A DNA stretch of 48,147 nt. Source: a phage. Under the pieces are notes generated by a model. The model searched no databases. It worked only from the letters and a program-made list of their open reading frames with translations, and was not told the DNA's origin. A program made the translations under genes and the position numbers. The DNA lies in sequence record PV636260.1. One strand, written 5' to 3'. Of the stretch, positions 1 through 8,372 are shown one piece after another (the first letter of the stretch is position 1; each line of letters opens with the position of its first letter).

Positions 1-127
1 ACGACTGGTCTATTTATAAAAATGTAGACTCTGAGCCGCCAAGCGGTTCCGATTCTTCAGGCGGCAGGATTGATTCAAAATTCAAGGTTGGTGAAGTTGA
101 TAAGTACAGATCCTCTTTCGAATTGCA
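1..127. repeat. 127-bp terminal direct duplication (identical to 48021-48147); circular closure or assembly overlap
   Basis: Positions 1-127 match 48021-48147 base for base; an ORF reads continuously across the junction. Confidence 0.9.
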
Positions 128-899
128 GGGAGGTAATGAAATAGATATATGGACAAGGATAACAACAATCAATGACAGATATAAGCAGGGCGCGGCAACG
201 TGGGATTTCAAACTGGACGGAAAGTTGATTTTTAACAAGGGTCTAACACCAAATGCAACTGGATATGCTCCAGGTAATACCTATTTGACATTGGCTAACA
301 CATGGATGAGTTCTTCGTACAGCGGTTATATTGGTCTAGTTGGTGGCGGCGTTGGTTTATCCAACGGCGGTTGGAGGAATTTTATCTCTCTTGGTTCGCT
401 TATTTTTCCAGGTAGTTCTCACCCCGTGGCGGTAATATCTCAGGTGTACGATTATGATATAGCTTCAGGTAATCAGCCAAACGGTGACATTGTAAGGAAT
501 ACATCGTTCAACGCTGAGAGTTACGACATAACGTTTGGGAATAACTCAGGTACTGTCAACTATATATTTTCCAAGTCTCCAGTGTCAGATGAGAGACTTA
601 AAAGCGACATAAAGGATATTGAAACAAGATTGGCGCTTGACAATTTGATGAAAATGAAATACCGATCATTCACATACAATTATGACAAGGAGAAAACTGT
701 AAGGAGAGGGTTCATAGCTCAACAACTTATGAGCATAGATAGTCAGTACGTTAGAAAGTACGGAAATATGAATGGAGAAGATTACACGCTATCACTGGAT
801 GAGAATGTTCTTTTGCTTGACGCTATAGCTGCGATACAGGAGCTTTCAAAGCAAGTATCTTCTCTAAAAGAAGAAATAAAATCACTTAAACAATCATAA
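1..899 (+). CDS. tail fiber protein, C-terminal part (intramolecular chaperone / peptidase S74-like domain); 5' part is 47072..48147
   Basis: In frame with 47072.. across the junction; C-terminus SDERLKSDIKDIE...AIAAIQELSKQVSSLKEEIKSLKQ resembles the autoproteolytic chaperone domain of phage tail fibers/endosialidases. Confidence 0.8.
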   Translation, partial: DWSIYKNVDSEPPSGSDSSGGRIDSKFKVGEVDKYRSSFELQGGNEIDIWTRITTINDRYKQGAATWDFKLDGKLIFNKGLTPNATGYAPGNTYLTLANTWMSSSYSGYIGLVGGGVGLSNGGWRNFISLGSLIFPGSSHPVAVISQVYDYDIASGNQPNGDIVRNTSFNAESYDITFGNNSGTVNYIFSKSPVSDERLKSDIKDIETRLALDNLMKMKYRSFTYNYDKEKTVRRGFIAQQLMSIDSQYVRKYGNMNGEDYTLSLDENVLLLDAIAAIQELSKQVSSLKEEIKSLKQS

Positions 900-902
900 A
901 GA

Positions 903-928
903 AAAGCCCCGCAATGCGGGGCTTTCTT
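903..928. terminator. bidirectional intrinsic terminator between converging tail fiber and ssb genes
   Basis: Hairpin AGCCCCGC-AAT-GCGGGGCT flanked by A-run and T-run. Confidence 0.7.
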
Positions 929-929
929 A

Positions 930-1346
930 TCAGAATGGGATATCATCGTCAAATGTTGACTGAGGGTTCGGTTGTGGTTGTTGTTGAGTTCGCTGTTGTT
1001 GCTGAGGCGATCGCTGTTGTTGATTGCTTTGTCCTCGTTGACTGAATACCAGCTTAGGAAAATCAGCGGCCTGCAATGAATTGTAAACCGTTCCGTTGTG
1101 CTCACGGGATGAGATCTTCAACGTTTCGCATGATACAGATATAACTCGACCAACTTGGAACGCTTCACGATACCAGTCAGCAAGGCCAGGCTTTCCACCA
1201 TCACTAAAAAAGAATGTGTAGTTGGTGTATTCTCGATCGCCATCACGAGGTTTATAGCTCTCTGCCAGTTCGATGATATAAGTATTGCCGCCGTTACGCT
1301 CCAGAATCTTAGGTTCTTTGCGGATCTCGCCAGTGATAATATGCAT
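930..1346 (-). CDS. ssb: single-stranded DNA-binding protein
   Basis: RBS AGGAGAG before ATG; Q/P-rich linker and C-terminal acidic tail DDDIPF typical of SSB. Confidence 0.85.
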   Translation of the reverse strand: MHIITGEIRKEPKILERNGGNTYIIELAESYKPRDGDREYTNYTFFFSDGGKPGLADWYREAFQVGRVISVSCETLKISSREHNGTVYNSLQAADFPKLVFSQRGQSNQQQRSPQQQQRTQQQPQPNPQSTFDDDIPF

Positions 1347-1392
1347 GTTTTTCTCTCCTAAAATTTATGGGCGACCGAAGCCGCCCTGATGA

Positions 1393-2040
1393 TTATTCGA
1401 AGTTGGTGATTGATTGAGATTGTACAGGCTTCGCGCTCGTTGCTTCAACCTGTTTTTTCTGTTCCGGTTGTGCCGGGCGAATACCGCGAGCTTTACCGAT
1501 CTCAAACTTAGCCTTAAGTGCGTTGTAGTGATCCTGAATGATTGACTTGCTTGCCGTGTCCGTCTGTCGGTAAGCGTTAGCCCATACCTCTTTCAGTGAT
1601 TCGATATCTTCACACGCATCAAGTTCTTTCTTCCAGTCCTTGACAGATTTTACTGCAAGCTGAGCATCGTCATCACTCTGGCTAATCCCCAGCGCTGCGG
1701 CTAATGAGTAACGTCGAGCATACGTCATTGCGGAACCTACGCCTTGCGGATCGCGCTTTGCAATCGGCATCATCATGAAGAATTTGGCCCACTGCCCGGA
1801 TTTGTGAATAAGCATCGTTTCAAGATGGAAAGTTGTTTCAGTGCTGGTATCCAGCATTGATTGCAGGATCATAATATCGTTATCTGTTAGTGCTGGGCTT
1901 ACTGCCGCCATCATTGCATCAAGAGTTGCATATGAGTTTTTCAGGTGATTGTTTTTAGCGTCCTTCTTTGCTTTCGCGAATTTGTTGCGAGCATTGAACA
2001 GTGCAGGAAGGATTTCGTTTGTTTCTGGTGATAATTGCAT
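1393..2040 (-). CDS. erf: Erf-like single-strand annealing recombination protein
   Basis: Start moved to internal ATG at 2040 with RBS CAGGAGAAG; sequence character of ERF-family annealing proteins; sits between ssb and exonuclease. Confidence 0.7.
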   Translation of the reverse strand: MQLSPETNEILPALFNARNKFAKAKKDAKNNHLKNSYATLDAMMAAVSPALTDNDIMILQSMLDTSTETTFHLETMLIHKSGQWAKFFMMMPIAKRDPQGVGSAMTYARRYSLAAALGISQSDDDAQLAVKSVKDWKKELDACEDIESLKEVWANAYRQTDTASKSIIQDHYNALKAKFEIGKARGIRPAQPEQKKQVEATSAKPVQSQSITNFE

Positions 2041-2114
2041 ATTAACTTCTCCTGATTGGTGTATGAGGTGCATTATAACACCTCATTAATTATTTGTTTA
2101 GCTATTTGTGCCGT

Positions 2115-3179
2115 TTACTTATTTTGGTAACGCACCCATGATGGCGTTTCAAGTTCGATCTCGCTTGCGTCGCCAGCGTACCCAGGCCAAATATCCATTT
2201 CAGAGCAAGCCTTGTAAGTGTGGACTACGCTAATGTACTGGTTACGACCGATCCTGATTTGCTCCATAGTCATACGGTAAGCCAGTGCGATATAAGGCTC
2301 TTTTTTCTCCTGCGCAAGCAATCTAACTACGATCGGGATATCTTCAGGGAAGTTGCCTTCAAAAGCGCCAGCCTGGATTGCGCGTCGTAGCAGATCATGC
2401 TGCAAGGCCATTTTCAGATAATACCCGTGATTATATGCAAGGCGCGGGAACTCCAACGGATTTGCGCTCATCGTTGTTTTGAAGTCGGTGATAATCAGTG
2501 CTTCCGGGAAAATAACGTCTTCGAATACCGGATCTCCATTCTCATCATAACCAGTCAGCACACGACCTGGTACATTCTCTTTGTAGTCCAGATGGTCAAG
2601 TCTAACCTTAACCTTTACGCCGGATATCTCACCGAAGATTGAGATCTCACGCTGCGCAGTTTCGCTATTGATGCACGCTTCATGATCGGGATTTTGCTCA
2701 AGAATGGCCCTCATCTTCATACAGGCATCATATTTATCAGCGTCAACCAGTTGCTTTCCTTCAGCGCGCGCCTCAGCTTCAGCAATCAGTTCAATAAGAT
2801 ATTGAACATTGAGATCTTCACCGCAATCAACCATCATTTTGATGAGGTCAGGGTACTGCTTACCGGATGTACCTTTCAGGCCAAAAGATTTTAATTTTGC
2901 TGCCAGTGCCGTTTGCGAAGTAATAAGATCTTTAAACTCTGACGGAGCAGGACAACGCGCATACGTTGCAGTAAACAGATCTCGACTCTCAAAGTTAGTG
3001 TGCGACTGAGTACCGAACTCCAGCGCTTTCGTTGTCTCATTCTTCTTGAATCGCCAGTTAGCTGGGCAAGTTTGATAAATTTCTGCAAGGCTCGATCCGC
3101 TTACATACTCTGCCGCCCAACCTTCGTTGCTATGATACTCGTCATTAGAAAGCTGACTTGATGTGAATACCTGGAACAT
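2115..3179 (-). CDS. recombination exonuclease, PD-(D/E)XK (YqaJ/lambda-Exo-like)
   Basis: RBS AAGGAG; motif ITDFKTT and surrounding acidic residues typical of YqaJ-type nucleases; adjacent to erf and ssb. Confidence 0.7.
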   Translation of the reverse strand: MFQVFTSSQLSNDEYHSNEGWAAEYVSGSSLAEIYQTCPANWRFKKNETTKALEFGTQSHTNFESRDLFTATYARCPAPSEFKDLITSQTALAAKLKSFGLKGTSGKQYPDLIKMMVDCGEDLNVQYLIELIAEAEARAEGKQLVDADKYDACMKMRAILEQNPDHEACINSETAQREISIFGEISGVKVKVRLDHLDYKENVPGRVLTGYDENGDPVFEDVIFPEALIITDFKTTMSANPLEFPRLAYNHGYYLKMALQHDLLRRAIQAGAFEGNFPEDIPIVVRLLAQEKKEPYIALAYRMTMEQIRIGRNQYISVVHTYKACSEMDIWPGYAGDASEIELETPSWVRYQNK

Positions 3180-3210
3180 TGCGCTTATCTCCTTCGTTTA
3201 CGATGAATCC

Positions 3211-3238
3211 ATTATAGCCATTAACAGCGTTTAGTCAA
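3211..3238 (-). promoter_or_regulatory. sigma70-type promoter for the exo-erf-ssb operon
   Basis: On minus strand TTGACT - 16 bp - TATAAT, about 30 nt upstream of the exonuclease RBS. Confidence 0.65.
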
Positions 3239-3647
3239 TCGGATACATGTAATTGGTGTGTAATAGCGTGTCTATATCGCTCAAGTTACAATCAGCATCA
3301 ACAGAATCAATGGCTTAATCCTGTTTTTATGTGGTGTCTATTTCGTAATACTTGTAACCGCTTTTTCTTAGAAATACACAGATATCCATGAATAGAATCA
3401 AGATTGATTATATTTTGAACAAATATGATAGAAATTTGACGAATCAATCAAATCACCTGTTACACGATATACAACTGTTACACAACAATAATTATATATA
3501 TAAAGCTAAAATTAAATATTATCTATCTATATATATTATATAGAGTTTTTATCATATCTCCCTGCGGTCGAATGAGGTCGATTTTGTAACACACCTCCCG
3601 GTTACAAAAATAGACACCTGTTACACGAAAAAATTGTAATCGAACTA

Positions 3648-3676
3648 TTGCAATAAAAGTAAATGCGACATACAAT
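3648..3676 (+). promoter_or_regulatory. sigma70-type promoter for the cor-like/RBP genes
   Basis: TTGCAA - 17 bp - TACAAT, about 30 nt upstream of ATG 3706. Confidence 0.6.
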
Positions 3677-3705
3677 GCAATCACACTAAAGACGAGGACA
3701 CACGA

Positions 3706-3936
3706 ATGAAAAAGTTAATCACCATTATCGCCGCCGCGTTCATCCTGACTGGTTGCGCTCAGAATCTTAAGAATGGCGACTGTGTTACTTACGCTTACGG
3801 ATCTTGCATGATGCGATTCGTTGACGGTCAGAAAGTGCCTGCTGGCGAAATCGATATGCGATTCAAGGGTCTGTCATCCGACGACGATCAGGGCAACTTT
3901 AGCGGCAAGGTGTCAATCAAAACTAAAGAGTGGTAA
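3706..3936 (+). CDS. small outer-membrane lipoprotein, Cor/Llp-like superinfection exclusion candidate
   Basis: Signal peptide with lipobox LTGC (MKKLITIIAAAFILTGC); 76 aa; sits next to receptor-binding locus downstream of J. Confidence 0.65.
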   Translation: MKKLITIIAAAFILTGCAQNLKNGDCVTYAYGSCMMRFVDGQKVPAGEIDMRFKGLSSDDDQGNFSGKVSIKTKEW

Positions 3937-3938
3937 TT

Positions 3939-4895
3939 ATGGGACAAGGAATATATATAAACCTAAACGACGGTCGCCCGGCAATGGAGATAACTTCGGG
4001 TCTTCGCGCACCGTCATGGTGCGGACCCATACAGGCTGACGGGGTTGATTCATCTGGATCGGTGTTTGATTTTGGTTTGCAAATGAGTCCAGGGTCTACT
4101 GCTTTTTGCCTTCCATCTCAGGCTATCTACATAGACGATATGGATTACATCCCGGAGGTGTATTATTTGACTAGTTTTCAGAAGGTAAATGATTCAACCG
4201 GACGAATAACGGTAGGTAATTTTAACGGGCACGGTGGAAGGAGGATGAGATTTTATGGAAACTGCTACGAAATCCTCCCCGCTCAAGCTGGAAATCAGGG
4301 GATACTTGTTAACGATTCAACGAACTTCGCAGCTATACCGAATAACGCCAGATTGATGAGCGCTGCATTTGTTGGGGGGATTCAGGTTAACGGTCAGGCT
4401 CAGTTGCCAGTACAGGGCGTTCCTTTCGGTATGTGGGATAATCCAAACGTAACACTTGAATCTGACGGCAATACAATATGGTGCAGGGATGCAAACTATA
4501 ACGGGATTGATGACGTTGGCGCTAGCGTATACGTGCAACTCGTAATATTTAATAACACTCCACCACCTCCTGGGCTAGGAATAACTATGAGTAACCCTGC
4601 TGGTCAGATCGTTTTCTCAAGCGTTAGACGCCCATTCGTTCTTGGCGGGACTATGGCGATAAATGATGGTTGGCAGTGGTGCGGTGGATTTTTCCCAATA
4701 CTGAGAACAGGTACGATATGCAGAGTTACGGGTGGATATAATAACATTCGATACAAGGGAGTTTGCATGAGCGGCGGTAACGTGAGAAGCGCACCCGGAA
4801 CAAGGGTGGGTAACTATTCTACTCAGAGCGGCGCTCAATTTCCCTTCAATATAAACATTTCAATGCCAATTCCTTTCACTCCAAACATGTATTAA
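3939..4895 (+). CDS. putative receptor-binding protein (distal tail protein)
   Basis: ATG 3939 after RBS AAAGAG; 318 aa, Gly/Asn-rich with PPPP linker; position between cor-like gene and J, converging on J. Confidence 0.5.
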   Translation: MGQGIYINLNDGRPAMEITSGLRAPSWCGPIQADGVDSSGSVFDFGLQMSPGSTAFCLPSQAIYIDDMDYIPEVYYLTSFQKVNDSTGRITVGNFNGHGGRRMRFYGNCYEILPAQAGNQGILVNDSTNFAAIPNNARLMSAAFVGGIQVNGQAQLPVQGVPFGMWDNPNVTLESDGNTIWCRDANYNGIDDVGASVYVQLVIFNNTPPPPGLGITMSNPAGQIVFSSVRRPFVLGGTMAINDGWQWCGGFFPILRTGTICRVTGGYNNIRYKGVCMSGGNVRSAPGTRVGNYSTQSGAQFPFNINISMPIPFTPNMY

Positions 4896-4920
4896 AAAAA
4901 GGGGCCAATCGGCCCCTTTC
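4896..4920. terminator. bidirectional intrinsic terminator between RBP and J
   Basis: A7-GGGGCCAATCGGCCCC-TTTCT. Confidence 0.7.
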
Positions 4921-4922
4921 TG

Positions 4923-7900
4923 TTACCAGACACCAACAACCACTCGGCCCCCGTTAGGTAGGTTAACCGTGATCCCGTTATTGTTTATCTGAACCGTATT
5001 GTTTGTCCCGTTGAATGCAAACGATCCGTTATTTGCATACAAAGCACCCCTTACGGTTGCGTTCATGAAGTAAGCTGCACCATTCTTGTTAATATGCCAC
5101 CCTTGATTTCCATCCCAATTGTTAGACTGAATCGCGTTACCAATCATGGCGTTAGTAATAAATCCATCCTTGATGATCGCGCTACTTAGAATGACCTGGC
5201 CATTCTCAACAACGAATGGGTACTGAGTCTGACCATTCATTCCTGTCATGATGGCAAATCGTGATGCCTCAAACAAAATCTGCGCCTTAGCCGCAGCTCC
5301 GGAACCAATCAGAGACATAGCCATGCCTGCACTGTATTCCTGGCCGTTATACTTCAGACCGAGCTTGACGCCGTACATTGCACCAGTCGAATCCGCATTG
5401 CTCCACGAATCAAGTTTTTGAGAAAGAGCTGCCTCATTATCCCCAAGCCTCGCGCTTAACGACAAGTCAGCTTGCGTTCTCGCCTCAGTCTCGTTTGCTA
5501 TAGCCTCTCTGATATCAGTCAAACTTGCCTGGATATCATCACCAATCTCTGCCCTGAGTTGATCGATTTCACGCGATAGCGCTCCAGTCTCAGTTGCGAT
5601 AACTTCACGCAATTCGCTGTTGCTAGCGCTAATCTGATCGCCAAAACTTGCCTTCAATTGCTCGATCGCCGTCACTCGTGCCTGCGTCTCATCAGCAATA
5701 AGTTTCAGTGATTTCGTGTACTCGGCTTTTCGTTTTCCGTTCTCCTTCTTCATGTAGATCGCGTCTTTGTCATTGGCGAGCGCGTTTTCTATTGCCGCCT
5801 CTGCGTTAGCTGCGTTCTGCGCCGCGTTGTCGGTTGCGTTGTCAACAAGCCACTTGTAACCCGGCGAGTTTTCGATATCGACAGAAATCTCTCCGATGAT
5901 ATCGTCAACGTTTGTTGATGCCATACCTCTGACAAAATCAGTCCACTGAGACACGTTACCGATCCTGTCAACCGTCCTTACCCGATACCACACAATATTC
6001 CCTCCAGGCATCGGTGAGTGATAATACTCATGCTGCGGATACGGAATCAAAGAAAGCAAACTTGCGTTATCCACTGTTCCATCCGGTGACTGTTGCAACT
6101 CTGTATAGGCCGTATCTCCAGAACCATCAGAGAACCCCCATTTTGTACGGATACCAAAAACAACATCATCCGTAGCTGTAAGGTTAATCGGTCTGCCCGG
6201 TTCACCCTGTTTACCCGTCAACGTTGCCGCGACGATATTTGACCAGCCTGAAGTCGTGCCCGAACCAGCGACTGAGCGCACGCGAACCTGATAGTTTCCA
6301 GCGTAAATCCCTTCAACATAAACCTCTTTGTTTGCTGTCTGCGGAACGTTTTGCCAGTTGCCGTCATCCTTTCTCCACTGTACGTCATAGAAAACTGCGT
6401 ACGGCACTTTATCCCAGCTAACAATCATAGTTTCTACGCTCATCCCTTGGACGATTCTCGACTCTGAGGACACTTGCACGTTTTCCGGTCTAGGGATCTG
6501 ATCTGGTTCAACGATGCTTGTCGGTCGGTCGTCGATGTTAACTCCGTAATCAATCTCATCGTACTTGTTAGGATCGTACTCAACCGCAGTAATCTTGTAG
6601 GTAAATTCCTCATCGTCATCACCCTTATCGATTTTTGTCACGACGTACTGCTGTAACGCAATGTCTGTGCGGTCGATAGCGAATACCGTGTTAGGCTTCA
6701 CAGGAAAGCCAAAGCCAATGTTAACCTCTATAGTCTTACCATCCGCACTAACACTTGAGATTGTGCGCTTCACGGGCTTGCCATCTGGCTTATTTACGAT
6801 AATAAAGTCACCCGCGCGTGCATCAACCCGGAACGGCAAGAAAATCTGACTTCCAGACACTTCGAGCAAGCGCCCTGATAGGTTCATCGTCAAGTTACTT
6901 GACCAGAAGTTATCAGCTATTGCCACAACATCTCCGATTGTCGGGATCATACCCTCAAGACCGGTAGCGAAGTTTACCGTAGTGCTGCGGAGGTTGGTTT
7001 TCAGAATCCATCTCCCGCGTCGGTTAGCCTCGCTTCGACGTGTGCAACCGATCGCTGTAATGCTGGTTACGTTATTACCGAACCGCAGAGTCGCCTCACG
7101 ATCGAATACTGGCTCAACGTCCTGTTGATACATGTTTTGCTCGTCGTCAAACATCACGTTACACGTCGTGTACATACTCTTTTCGCTTGCGAACGTATAG
7201 GAGAAGTCACCATTAACAACGTTGTCGTTAGTGAAGATGTACGCAGGCTCACGCGGTCTGTCGATGATTACCGAGATGCTTTCGCCATTCCAGAAGCTCA
7301 TACCACGGAAGATTGAGCAAATATCTCGAATCACCTTATACGCATCAGTCTGTGACTGAATTATCACGTCGCAAAGGTAGCGAGGCTCCGTGCCGCCTTT
7401 CCCGTCAGGAACCATCTGGTCGCAATATTGCGCCGCCTCATATAGCGCCCATTTATCTACAGATATTCCAAGCTCTTTCTGATCCAGTCCGTAACGCTGA
7501 TTAATCATCAAGTCATAAAGAACCCAAGCCGGATTATTAGTCCACGCCTTCTTAAAAGTGCCATCCCAATTTCCGTTATAAGTTCGTGATTCCGGATCGT
7601 AGTTTGACGGAACGTTTACAATCTTCCAGCGCTTACGAATTGAGATCGTAGGTAACTGGTTTGGGAACATCTTCGAGTCGAACTCTACGAAAAGAAGACC
7701 TGTCAGAGGATAACGGAACTTGGCATCGATAACCTCAGCATAGCTTTTTACCTGAATTGCATCGACAACGTTTGAGTTATCAGAGTCTGGAGTCTTTCTA
7801 ACAATCCTGAATATCACCTGGTTGTTGAAGTTTGGTAAGTTTATTCGACGACTTCGATCGTAACCAGACATTGTTTTGCCTTCGATTACGTCAGTGAGAA

Positions 7901-8372
7901 CAGTCTCAAACGAACCACCATCAACCGCTTGCTGCACTTCGTACTCAACGCGAACTCCGTTTTTATCACCGTTGCTTTCAATTCGTACTCCGCGTGGCAT
8001 AAACATTTTTATACGTATTGCCGATAGCGTTTTATTGGTTACTGATATTGAGTAAGGATTATTGGTAGTAATCTCACGGTTTACAGTTACCTCGCTTGAG
8101 CTATCTTCCATTCCTTTTATGTATTCCTGAGTCTGAGTTCCCGATCTGAACTCTGCTGTTACTCCTTCAAAGTTGAATGATCCGTCCTCGTTCTGCACTG
8201 GTACAGAGTTGAACATCAACTGCCTAAGGTCGAATTTATCGTCAATCTCACCATCAGATATTGCTAACAGGATCTTAATCTTGTTGATTGAGATCAGGTT
8301 ATCTTCCATTTCTTGAGGTTTGTGAGGTTTTGGTGAACCACCTTTCGATCCGCTTATCACTTTTTGAATCAT
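4923..8372 (-). CDS. central tail fiber / tail tip protein, lambda J-like
   Basis: 1149 aa; size, position after gpI, and C-terminal region typical of J-like host specificity proteins. Confidence 0.85.
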   Translation of the reverse strand: MIQKVISGSKGGSPKPHKPQEMEDNLISINKIKILLAISDGEIDDKFDLRQLMFNSVPVQNEDGSFNFEGVTAEFRSGTQTQEYIKGMEDSSSEVTVNREITTNNPYSISVTNKTLSAIRIKMFMPRGVRIESNGDKNGVRVEYEVQQAVDGGSFETVLTDVIEGKTMSGYDRSRRINLPNFNNQVIFRIVRKTPDSDNSNVVDAIQVKSYAEVIDAKFRYPLTGLLFVEFDSKMFPNQLPTISIRKRWKIVNVPSNYDPESRTYNGNWDGTFKKAWTNNPAWVLYDLMINQRYGLDQKELGISVDKWALYEAAQYCDQMVPDGKGGTEPRYLCDVIIQSQTDAYKVIRDICSIFRGMSFWNGESISVIIDRPREPAYIFTNDNVVNGDFSYTFASEKSMYTTCNVMFDDEQNMYQQDVEPVFDREATLRFGNNVTSITAIGCTRRSEANRRGRWILKTNLRSTTVNFATGLEGMIPTIGDVVAIADNFWSSNLTMNLSGRLLEVSGSQIFLPFRVDARAGDFIIVNKPDGKPVKRTISSVSADGKTIEVNIGFGFPVKPNTVFAIDRTDIALQQYVVTKIDKGDDDEEFTYKITAVEYDPNKYDEIDYGVNIDDRPTSIVEPDQIPRPENVQVSSESRIVQGMSVETMIVSWDKVPYAVFYDVQWRKDDGNWQNVPQTANKEVYVEGIYAGNYQVRVRSVAGSGTTSGWSNIVAATLTGKQGEPGRPINLTATDDVVFGIRTKWGFSDGSGDTAYTELQQSPDGTVDNASLLSLIPYPQHEYYHSPMPGGNIVWYRVRTVDRIGNVSQWTDFVRGMASTNVDDIIGEISVDIENSPGYKWLVDNATDNAAQNAANAEAAIENALANDKDAIYMKKENGKRKAEYTKSLKLIADETQARVTAIEQLKASFGDQISASNSELREVIATETGALSREIDQLRAEIGDDIQASLTDIREAIANETEARTQADLSLSARLGDNEAALSQKLDSWSNADSTGAMYGVKLGLKYNGQEYSAGMAMSLIGSGAAAKAQILFEASRFAIMTGMNGQTQYPFVVENGQVILSSAIIKDGFITNAMIGNAIQSNNWDGNQGWHINKNGAAYFMNATVRGALYANNGSFAFNGTNNTVQINNNGITVNLPNGGRVVVGVW

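What the first reader, a model, noticed from the sequence alone, without database searches (positions are those of the whole stretch)
3706..4895. Receptor-binding locus: Cor-like lipoprotein plus candidate RBP converging on J
A 76-aa lipoprotein (lipobox LTGC) with its own strong promoter lies directly upstream of a 318-aa Gly/Asn-rich protein, and the pair converges on the J gene. In T1/T5-type phages such pairs encode the receptor-binding protein and a lipoprotein that blocks the same receptor after infection. This locus should determine host receptor choice (FhuA, BtuB, TolC, LptD, YncD-type alternatives are known in the group) and superinfection exclusion.
Basis: partly seen in the sequence, partly recalled or inferred. 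Interest (0 to 1): 0.6.

Follow-up and report, generated by a model that had tools for sequence, protein, structure and literature searches.

The report
LptD-targeting receptor protein and exclusion lipoprotein
This T1-like phage carries a well-known two-gene host-recognition cassette: a tail-tip protein predicted to dock onto the essential outer-membrane protein LptD, and a small lipoprotein predicted to jam LptD from inside so that infected cells cannot be attacked again. It is ordinary for this phage group and was structurally explained in 2025.

Summary
Window 3706-3936 (+) encodes a 76-aa lipoprotein with lipobox LTGC. Window 3939-4895 (+) encodes a 318-aa Gly/Asn-rich protein. Both converge on J (4923-8372, -) across a two-way terminator hairpin.

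The 318-aa protein is a full-length DUF6453 member. It matches the solved Oekolampad receptor-binding protein bound to LptDE (PDB 9RPT_C, E 9.6e-67). My AlphaFold model hits only that structure (TM 0.90). It is 68% identical to the protein of the LptD-dependent phage Msk/OzMSK and 98% identical to the SH6 protein already predicted to bind LptD.

The lipoprotein belongs to the Rtp45 family (PF24052; PDB 9RPS_D, E 1.1e-9), with the disulfide cysteines kept. It is "Cor-like" only in its signal peptide, which is identical to T1 Cor. Homology to T1 ends exactly at the lipobox cysteine codon and resumes 64 codons before the end of J. The swapped cassette is therefore 3757-5118.

The "strong promoter" is unproven: it is a 9/12 consensus match. 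Receptor use and exclusion are inferred, not tested.

Verdict: already known, low interest.

The parts
3648..3676 (+). Sigma-70-like promoter candidate (TTGCAA-17 nt-TACAAT) for the lipoprotein-RBP operon. The same element lies upstream of cor in T1.
   Evidence: 9/12 match, not above the shuffle expectation; invariant in window, T1, Chapo and ISF001.
3694..3698 (+). Shine-Dalgarno GAGGA, 7 nt before the ATG of the lipoprotein gene.
   Evidence: Sequence read directly. Conserved in relatives: GAGG invariant, fifth base varies in Chapo.
3706..3756 (+). Lipoprotein signal peptide with lipobox (MKKLITIIAAAFILTGC). It is identical to the signal peptide of T1 Cor. Homology to T1 ends at the Cys17 codon, 3754-3756.
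3757..3936 (+). Mature Rtp45-type superinfection-exclusion lipoprotein (59 aa plus stop). Cys26 and Cys34 align with the Rtp45 disulfide Cys30-Cys38. The VPAGE(I/V)DxR(F/Y)xG motif and the KEW motif at or next to the C-terminus are conserved.
   Evidence: PF24052 at 87 bits against a cut-off of 27. PDB 9RPS_D at E 1.1e-9. phrog_4281 at 1.5e-28 for the mature part alone. Alignments.
3939..4895 (+). Receptor-binding protein of the DUF6453 / LptD-targeting family, 318 aa. The N-terminal ~26 residues are nearly invariant across the family and are the presumed tail-docking end.
   Evidence: PF20051 at 1.6e-125. PDB 9RPT_C at E 9.6e-67, full length. AF2 model pLDDT 86. Foldseek finds only 9rpt_C, TM 0.90. 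68% identity to the Msk/OzMSK protein. 99.7/99.1/98.4% identity to Sfin-1/pSf-2/SH6.
4898..4919 (.). Two-way intrinsic terminator hairpin (stem AGGGGCC/GGCCCCT within a 9-pair helix) between the convergent RBP and J genes.
   Evidence: Equivalent hairpins occur in Rtp and Rogue1 and are annotated in Chapo and Rogue1.
4926..5118 (-). Last 64 codons of J, the tail-tip end that travels with the cassette. It is shared with LptD-type phages and differs from T1. It is the presumed docking site for the RBP.
4923..8372 (-). J-like central tail fibre / tail tip protein, 1149 aa.
   Evidence: phrog_31, PF09327, PF24801, PF13550.

Best explanation
Window 3706-4895 is the LptD-type host-recognition cassette of a Tunavirus (T1-like siphovirus). 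The 318-aa protein is the terminal receptor-binding protein. It is inferred to sit non-covalently on the C-terminal tip of J, through its conserved N-terminal end and the cassette-linked last ~45-64 residues of J. Its distal loops are inferred to insert into the lumen of an open state of the outer-membrane LPS translocon LptDE, committing the phage to DNA ejection. The 76-aa product is an outer-membrane lipoprotein: Sec export, lipidation at Cys17, and Ala at +2 so it is not retained in the inner membrane. By homology with Rtp45, it binds the periplasmic side of LptD between LptE and LptM. It pushes a hairpin up the barrel and displaces extracellular loop 4. The RBP of the same or related phages can then no longer bind, giving superinfection exclusion and protecting progeny from adsorbing to debris. 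The two genes are probably co-transcribed from a promoter that T1 uses for cor. What is shown here: the ORFs, family membership, homology to the solved complexes, the predicted fold, and the cassette boundaries. What is inferred: LptD binding by this allele, the exclusion phenotype, virion location, J docking, and promoter activity.
For: RBP family and fold: PF20051/DUF6453 at 418.7 bits. Full-length match to 9RPT_C, the Oekolampad RBP on S. flexneri LptDE, at E 9.6e-67. AF2 model pLDDT 86.3, pTM 0.85. Its only significant PDB fold match is 9rpt_C, with E 1.4e-19, TM 0.90 and rmsd 2.2 A. RBP identities: 43% to Oekolampad, 40% to Rtp44, 69% to Rogue1, and 68% to Msk. The near-identical isolate OzMSK fails to infect lptD mutants (PMC13035648). 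SH6, whose protein is 98.4% identical to ours, is already listed there as a predicted LptD binder. The >30% identity and near-full-coverage rule for the LptD family is met. Lipoprotein: PF24052 at 87 bits. 9RPS_D, Rtp45 on LptDE, at E 1.1e-9. The lipid Cys and both disulfide Cys are aligned (and SI Fig. S5). 70% identity to the Oekolampad exclusion protein. Mechanism of the homologs: PMC12685063. Architecture: identical to rtp45-rtp44 converging on rtp43, and to Oekolampad, Rogue1 and Chapo. Cassette exchange: T1 has J-ST32-ST31-cor at this site. Homology between window and T1 stops at 3756 and resumes at 5119. The J tip is shared with Rtp, Msk, Rogue1, Chapo, Oekolampad and AugustePiccard, but not with T1.
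Against: No experiment exists for this allele. The closest structurally characterised RBP is only 43% identical. The most divergent stretches (about residues 27-110, 236-262 and 296-310) may include receptor-contacting loops. I could not check contact residues because the published tables are images. For Sfin-1, whose RBP is 99.7% identical, adsorption was periodate-sensitive and proteinase-K-insensitive, and its authors named LPS O-antigen as the receptor. Its LC-MS/MS list of 22 proteins does not include the RBP homolog. Both points are weak. O-antigen is the expected primary receptor of the lateral fibres, barrel proteins resist proteinase K, the list includes non-structural enzymes, and the RBP is a low-copy protein. 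The promoter is only a 9/12 match.
Confidence: 0.9

Rival explanations
1. The 318-aa protein is a receptor-binding protein, but this diverged allele recognises a different outer-membrane protein (FhuA, BtuB, YncD or another) rather than LptD.
For: It is only 40-43% identical to the alleles with direct biochemical or structural data. The variable regions could be the contact loops. Receptor switching at this locus is common.
Against: The FhuA, BtuB, YncD and LptD specificities map to four unrelated protein families. Members of the DUF6453 family with an experimentally determined receptor in the papers read use LptD: AugustePiccard/JeanPiccard, OzMSK and Oekolampad. Ours is 68% identical to the Msk/OzMSK protein. 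The partner lipoprotein is of the LptD-blocking Rtp45 type. The FhuA cassette of T1 and JLBYU37 has a different gene content.
Confidence: 0.05
2. The lipoprotein is a Cor protein that blocks FhuA, as in T1, so the pair is not matched to one receptor.
For: The signal peptide is identical to T1 Cor, and the gene has the same position, orientation and upstream region as cor. There is a weak phrog_1119 hit at 5.5e-6.
Against: The Cor hit covers residues 1-33 only. The mature part alone hits only phrog_4281, the Rtp45 family. Mature-against-mature BLASTP shows no similarity. T1 Cor scores 17.7 bits on PF24052, below the cut-off of 27, while ours scores 87.
Confidence: 0.02
3. The database labels are right: the 318-aa protein is a host-takeover 'membrane protein' or moron, and the lipoprotein is a lysis protein (annotated 'u-spanin' in Chapo). 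On this reading neither is involved in adsorption.
For: RefSeq calls the homologs 'membrane protein'. PHROG 1265 is filed under 'moron, auxiliary metabolic gene and host takeover'. Chapo annotates the lipoprotein as u-spanin. The RBP homolog was not listed in the Sfin-1 virion proteome.
Against: The RBP has no hydrophobic segment (maximum Kyte-Doolittle 19-residue mean 0.99). The model is all-beta. [quoted passage not shown] The lipoprotein lacks the C-terminal membrane helix a u-spanin needs. T1's spanin lies in the lysis cassette elsewhere.
Confidence: 0.02

Closest known systems
Oekolampad (Bas18) RBP bas18_0025 and exclusion lipoprotein bas18_0026; PDB 9RPT, 9RPW, 9RQI (PMC12685063)
   Same: Same two families, same gene order and same convergence on J. 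The RBP matches full length at E 9.6e-67 with the same predicted fold. The lipoprotein is 70% identical overall.
   Different: The RBP is only 43% identical. Oekolampad is a Dhillonvirus with a lateral fibre gene upstream, rather than the exonuclease/Erf/SSB block found here. The signal peptides differ.
Phage Rtp: Rtp44 (RBP) and Rtp45 (exclusion lipoprotein, PDB 9RPS)
   Same: Same operon and the same flanking synteny: exonuclease VIII, Erf, SSB, lateral fibre. The J tip is shared. The Rtp45 disulfide cysteines and core motifs are conserved.
   Different: The RBP is 40% and the lipoprotein 36-39% identical. Ours carries the T1 Cor signal peptide and the T1-type upstream region.
Tunavirus relatives SH6, Sfin-1, pSf-2, ISF002, Shfl1, phi2457T
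   Same: Essentially the same genes. The RBP is 98.4-99.7% identical to SH6, pSf-2 and Sfin-1, and the lipoprotein is 100% identical to Sfin-1, S2_02 and phi2457T and 98.7% to SH6. SH6 is already modelled as an LptD binder.
   Different: The backbone is about 93% identical at DNA level. None of these phages has a genetically proven receptor in the papers I could read.
T1 FhuA cassette (ST32, ST31, cor)
   Same: Same site between J and exonuclease VIII. Same upstream region, promoter candidate and lipoprotein signal peptide.
   Different: The gene content and orientation are unrelated: two genes co-oriented with J, plus cor. The Cor mature domain is different and the J tip is different.
T5 pb5 (RBP) and Llp (lipoprotein) acting on FhuA
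   Same: Same logic: a dedicated RBP held non-covalently at the tail tip, plus a periplasm-facing lipoprotein that remodels the receptor.
   Different: No sequence or fold relationship was detected. Llp acts by long-range allostery in a TonB-dependent transporter, whereas Rtp45-type proteins displace a loop physically.

Membership tests
LptD-targeting siphovirus RBP (DUF6453, PF20051; Oekolampad RBP / Rtp44) | Full-length match to the family profile above the curated cut-off | tested here: met
   418.7 bits against a cut-off of 25, residues 4-295 on profile 1-291. phrog_1265 at 1.1e-125.
LptD-targeting siphovirus RBP (DUF6453, PF20051; Oekolampad RBP / Rtp44) | Homology and shared fold with the solved LptDE-bound RBP | tested here: met
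   9RPT_C at E 9.6e-67, residues 1-318 against 1-321. The AF2 model's only significant PDB hit is 9rpt_C, TM 0.90, rmsd 2.2 A.
LptD-targeting siphovirus RBP (DUF6453, PF20051; Oekolampad RBP / Rtp44) | More than 30% identity at near-full coverage to RBPs of phages with LptD as proven receptor (criterion of the 2026 preprint) | tested here: met
   43% to Oekolampad, 40% to Rtp44 (96% identical to AugustePiccard), 68% to Msk/OzMSK. All are full length.
LptD-targeting siphovirus RBP (DUF6453, PF20051; Oekolampad RBP / Rtp44) | Encoded next to gpJ, paired with a small lipoprotein gene | tested here: met
LptD-targeting siphovirus RBP (DUF6453, PF20051; Oekolampad RBP / Rtp44) | Infection depends on LptD and the protein binds LptDE | not testable with these tools
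   Needs plating on lptD mutants or binding assays. Contact-residue conservation could not be checked because the published tables are images.
LptD-targeting siphovirus RBP (DUF6453, PF20051; Oekolampad RBP / Rtp44) | Component of the virion tail tip | not testable with these tools
   Only indirect support: the J C-terminal tip co-varies with the cassette. The Sfin-1 LC-MS/MS list lacks the homolog.
Rtp45-type superinfection-exclusion lipoprotein (PF24052, phrog_4281) | Profile match above the curated cut-off | tested here: met
   87 bits against 27. For comparison, Rtp45 scores 128 and the Oekolampad protein 76. The mature part alone hits phrog_4281 at 1.5e-28.
Rtp45-type superinfection-exclusion lipoprotein (PF24052, phrog_4281) | Signal peptide with lipobox, and a +2 residue compatible with outer-membrane sorting | tested here: met
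   MKKLITIIAAAFILTG-C17-A18. The sorting rule is from established Lol-pathway knowledge.
Rtp45-type superinfection-exclusion lipoprotein (PF24052, phrog_4281) | Intramolecular disulfide pair (Rtp45 Cys30-Cys38) and the core beta-hairpin motif | tested here: met
   Cys26 and Cys34 fall in the same columns, and VPAGE(I/V)DxR(F/Y)xG is conserved (SI Fig. S5).
Rtp45-type superinfection-exclusion lipoprotein (PF24052, phrog_4281) | Expression blocks adsorption of LptD-dependent phages | not testable with these tools
   Needs expression in trans and plating assays.
Cor superinfection-exclusion lipoprotein (phrog_1119; T1, phi80, N15) | Homology of the mature domain to Cor | tested here: not met
   The Cor profile hit covers residues 1-33 only and disappears when the signal peptide is removed. 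BLASTP of the mature parts shows nothing.
Cor superinfection-exclusion lipoprotein (phrog_1119; T1, phi80, N15) | Accompanied by the two FhuA-cassette genes (T1 ST32 and ST31 type) | tested here: not met
   They are absent between the lipoprotein gene and J. They are present in T1 and JLBYU37.
T5 pb5 / Llp | Sequence or fold homology to pb5 or Llp | tested here: not met
   Neither appears among the PDB sequence hits or the 50 fold matches listed.

The most novel reading that the evidence does not exclude
The cassette boundaries are functional joints that nature reuses. In this reading, the backbone keeps the promoter and the lipoprotein export signal. The three receptor-specific parts move together as one unit: the mature exclusion domain, the RBP, and the last ~64 residues of J. 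The left joint falls exactly at the lipobox codons GGT TGC, which are also present in T1 cor, Rtp45 and the Oekolampad gene (Msk has the synonymous GGT TGT) and could act as a recombination microhomology. A second, nested joint after about RBP residue 28 lets RBP bodies swap under an unchanged lipoprotein, as in Chapo. If so, coordinates 3757-5118 define a ready-made module for retargeting T1-like phages from FhuA to LptD.
Probability: 0.4. Interest if true: 0.4.

Novelty: already known. Interest (0 to 1): 0.2.

Why it matters
The locus predicts that this phage uses the essential LPS translocon LptD as its terminal receptor. That matters in practice for phage therapy and for contamination control. 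fhuA ('T1-resistant') strains should not protect against it. Resistance would have to arise through subtle lptD loop changes. The biology itself is already published: the locus concept in 2021, the LptD prediction for the near-identical SH6 protein in 2025, and cryo-EM of homologous RBP-LptDE and Rtp45-LptDE complexes in 2025. The only added value here is the base-pair definition of the swapped module relative to T1. That module comprises the mature lipoprotein, the RBP, the terminator and the J tip, with the Cor signal peptide retained.

Tried and rejected
(1) Conservation of LptD-contact residues. The paper's interaction tables (SI Figs S7 and S16) are held only as images, so this could not be tested.

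(2) Promoter support from distant relatives. Scans of the Rtp, Oekolampad and Rogue1 loci gave no consistent promoter just upstream of their lipoprotein genes. This is inconclusive.

(3) Virion proteomics. Only the Sfin-1 list was found. It lacks the RBP but is of doubtful specificity. A search for Rogue1 or Rtp proteomes found nothing useful.

(4) Wietzorrek et al. 2006, the original Rtp45 work, is not held. My recollection that cloned rtp45 conferred resistance to Rtp is from memory only.

(5) Rfam scan of 3100-5200: nothing near any gathering score. The hairpin at 3582-3609 is not unusually stable as RNA.

(6) Antisense ORFs inside the RBP gene (4317-4538, 4604-4768 and 4617-4838, minus strand) were dismissed. 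They lie opposite a frame supported at E 1e-125 and were not examined further.

(7) The GTG 3930 start for the RBP was rejected in favour of ATG 3939, based on the N-termini of homologs.

(8) A DNA-level comparison with Chapo by script failed because that locus was not copied to the script machine. The boundary was taken from the megablast result instead.

Full report
**What is there.** The window is a T1-like phage of the genus Tunavirus. Its first 25 kb match Shigella phages pSf-2, ISF002, Sfin-4/5/6, phi2457T and SH6 at about 93% DNA identity.

At the reported coordinates there are two co-oriented genes:
- 3706-3936 (+) encodes 76 aa, MKKLITIIAAAFILTGCAQN..., with a classical lipobox and Cys17.
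- 3939-4895 (+) encodes 318 aa.

They are separated by 2 nt. Both run toward the 3' end of the J-like tail tip gene (4923-8372, minus strand; phrog_31, PF09327, PF24801).

Between the two stop codons lies a GC-rich hairpin at 4898-4919. It folds well on both strands, at -17.7 and -19.5 kcal/mol with z -4.7 and -4.2, and has a U-run on either side. It is a two-way terminator. Equivalent hairpins occur in Rtp and Rogue1.

The 318-aa protein has 13.2% Gly and 8.8% Asn and no hydrophobic segment.

Upstream there is a TTGCAA-17-TACAAT site at 3648-3676 and a GAGGA Shine-Dalgarno at 3694-3698. The promoter match is 9/12, and such matches are no more frequent here than in shuffled sequence. The site is invariant in T1, Chapo and ISF001.

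**What the proteins are.** The 318-aa protein is a full-length member of DUF6453 (PF20051, 1.6e-125; phrog_1265).
- Against all PDB sequences it has one match: chain C of 9RPT/9RPW/9RQI, at E 9.6e-67, residues 1-318 on 1-321. This is the receptor-binding protein of phage Oekolampad bound to Shigella flexneri LptDE (PMC12685063).
- An AlphaFold2 model built on 48 family members is confident (pLDDT 86.3, pTM 0.85) and all-beta.
- In a Foldseek search of the PDB the model has a single significant hit, 9rpt_C (E 1.4e-19, TM 0.90 on the target, rmsd 2.2 A).

The 76-aa protein belongs to PF24052 "Phage lipoprotein" (87 bits, cut-off 27).
- It matches PDB 9RPS chain D at E 1.1e-9. That chain is Rtp45, the exclusion lipoprotein of phage Rtp solved on LptDE.
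- Cys26 and Cys34 align with the Rtp45 disulfide Cys30-Cys38.
- The lipid-anchor Cys, the VPAGE(I/V)DxR(F/Y)xG stretch and the KEW motif at or next to the C-terminus are conserved (SI Fig. S5 of the paper).

**Which receptor.** The concept of a variable "RBP locus" next to gpJ that sets terminal-receptor choice in Drexlerviridae and related small siphoviruses comes from Maffei et al. 2021 (PMC8594841). A 2026 preprint with 1,050 genetic screens confirmed it. It states that four unrelated protein families in this locus go with FhuA, BtuB, LptD and YncD, each family defined by more than 30% identity at near-full coverage.

Our protein is in the LptD family:

| Compared protein | Identity | Evidence for LptD use |
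|---|---|---|
| Oekolampad RBP | 43% | cryo-EM on LptDE; lptD resistance mutants |
| Rtp44 | 40% | 96% identical to the AugustePiccard RBP, an LptD phage |
| Rogue1 homolog | 69% | predicted only |
| Msk RBP | 68% | near-identical isolate OzMSK cannot infect two lptD mutants |
| SH6 homolog | 98.4% | already modelled as a predicted LptD binder |

The partner lipoprotein is also of the LptD-blocking type. FhuA-dependent relatives carry a different cassette at this site: two genes co-oriented with J, plus an oppositely oriented cor or exclusion gene. This is seen in T1 and in JLBYU37 (PMC13164509).

**How it most likely works.** By homology with the solved complexes:
- The RBP's distal end inserts deeply into the LptD lumen and binds an open state of the translocon.
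- After export and lipidation, the lipoprotein sits in the inner leaflet of the outer membrane and binds LptD near strands 5-8, between LptE and LptM.
- It sends a hairpin up the barrel that displaces extracellular loop 4 by up to 20 A. This gives a conformation that cannot accept the RBP.

This is inference for the present allele. No binding, plating or virion data exist for it.

**Cassette boundaries, my own result.** BLASTN of the window against T1 gives continuous homology (92.5%) from 902 to 3756. There is nothing from 3757 to 5118, and then homology again from 5119 onward.
- Position 3756 is the third base of the lipobox Cys codon. The signal peptide MKKLITIIAAAFILTGC is identical to that of T1 Cor, but the mature parts are unrelated.
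- This explains the weak Cor profile hit, which covers residues 1-33 only. It vanishes when the signal peptide is removed.
- The codons GGT TGC at the junction are shared by T1 cor, Rtp45 and the Oekolampad gene; Msk has the synonymous GGT TGT.
- Position 5119 corresponds to J codon 1085 of 1149.
- The last ~45 residues of J (...TVRGALYANNGSFAFNGTNNTVQINNNGITVNLPNGGRVVVGVW) are shared with the LptD-type phages Rtp, Rogue1, Msk, Chapo and, more loosely, Oekolampad. T1 diverges there although it is about 90% identical upstream.
- A tblastn search with the J tip found 36 records. All named ones are DUF6453-carrying phages, including AugustePiccard and Rtp. None is T1-type.

So the unit exchanged relative to T1 is 3757-5118: mature lipoprotein, RBP, terminator and J tip. 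This agrees with the preprint's remark that the J C-terminal tip is specificity-associated.

There is also a nested joint. The Tunavirus Chapo shares the lipoprotein (93% protein identity) and DNA up to window position 4023, which is about RBP residue 28. Its RBP body, however, is of the Dhillonvirus type and only 42% identical. The RBP N-terminus (residues 1-26) is nearly invariant across 48-52 family members. This fits a tail-docking role.

**Caveats.** For Sfin-1 (RBP 99.7% identical), adsorption was sensitive to periodate but not to proteinase K, and its authors named O-antigen as the receptor. This is compatible with the two-step model, in which lateral fibres bind O-antigen and the tip RBP binds a protease-resistant barrel. 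It is not evidence for LptD. The Sfin-1 LC-MS/MS table does not list the RBP homolog. That table includes helicase, primase and holin, so its specificity is doubtful. The RBP is also expected in very few copies per virion.

**Comparison and verdict.** The pair is a member of the Oekolampad/Rtp-type LptD recognition and exclusion system. It works like T5 pb5/Llp and T1 Cor in logic, but it is not related to them. The proteins are identical or nearly so to proteins already in public phage genomes. The receptor prediction for this very allele group is published, and the mechanism of the family is solved. The finding is correct and useful for annotation, since RefSeq's "membrane protein" and Chapo's "u-spanin" labels are wrong, but it is not new. 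Interest 0.2; confidence in the explanation 0.9.

Noticed in passing
window 3458-3625 (intergenic region 3180-3705): Four of the seven TGTTACA heptamers in the whole 48-kb window lie within 170 bp just upstream of the lipoprotein promoter candidate. They form three copies of CACCTGTTACACGA-like repeats and a perfect 9-bp inverted repeat, TTTTGTAAC-N10-GTTACAAAA, at 3582-3609. The arms of the inverted repeat are invariant in T1, Chapo and ISF001 while the spacer varies. This looks like operator sites for a regulator of the divergent exonuclease and lipoprotein transcription units. As RNA the hairpin is not unusually stable.
   Followed up: partly
L011:2441-2722 (phiEco32, NC_010324.1 66050-66331): Podoviruses of the phiEco32 group (Gordonclarkvirinae, including Bas89, Bas90, Bas93, SU7 and NJ01) encode a clear Rtp45-family lipoprotein. 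It scores 124 bits on PF24052, with lipobox LTGC, both disulfide cysteines and C-terminal KEW. The gene lies among small, mostly hypothetical genes next to a tRNA-Arg, and no podovirus-sized genome appeared among the DUF6453 tblastn rows shown. The BASEL paper describes O-antigen and LPS core as their receptors and does not mention LptD for them. They may block LptD to exclude competing siphoviruses, or they may use LptD themselves.
   Followed up: partly
L008:4268-4498 (Shigella phage ISF001, MG049919.1): The deposited ISF001 lipoprotein gene has TTT (Phe) in place of the lipobox TGC (Cys), reading LTGF. It also carries several other substitutions. If this is not a sequencing error, the exclusion protein could not be lipidated. 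The annotated J of ISF001 also ends early.
   Followed up: no
window 1-901 (ORF 123-899 +): This is the distal end of the lateral tail fibre gene. Its C-terminal region looks like an intramolecular chaperone domain, judged by eye only. It does not match T1 or any of the closest genomes: all alignments start at 897-932. It is a second hypervariable host-range locus, presumably setting O-antigen specificity.
   Followed up: no
proteins P0025-P0064 and others: DUF6453 homologs at 40-47% identity are common in chromosomes of Citrobacter, Salmonella and E. coli, on contigs up to 4.9 Mb, and one is on an E. coli plasmid (P0060). The LptD-type RBP is therefore also widespread in prophages, such as the SPN3UB-like Salmonella phages.
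   Followed up: no
hits H85, H118 and H201-H207 (Campylobacter phages A118-A134, MG0656xx): Seven records labelled as Campylobacter jejuni phages carry this enterobacterial T1-like cassette: RBP 37.8%, lipoprotein 56.6% and J tip 87% identical. The host label looks doubtful.
   Followed up: no
H1, H18, H21, H27, H29 (OR8446xx and OR8452xx, 'UNVERIFIED_ORG' fragments of 1.5-3.6 kb): Several short unannotated contigs from wastewater phage enrichments match this locus at 92-99% identity, four of the five at 98.6-99.4% somewhere. This is consistent with assemblies breaking at a locus that is polymorphic in mixed phage populations.
   Followed up: no
annotations of homologs: Public labels for these genes are misleading. 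RefSeq calls the RBP 'membrane protein'. PHROG 1265 is filed as 'moron, auxiliary metabolic gene and host takeover'. Chapo labels the lipoprotein 'u-spanin'.
   Followed up: yes
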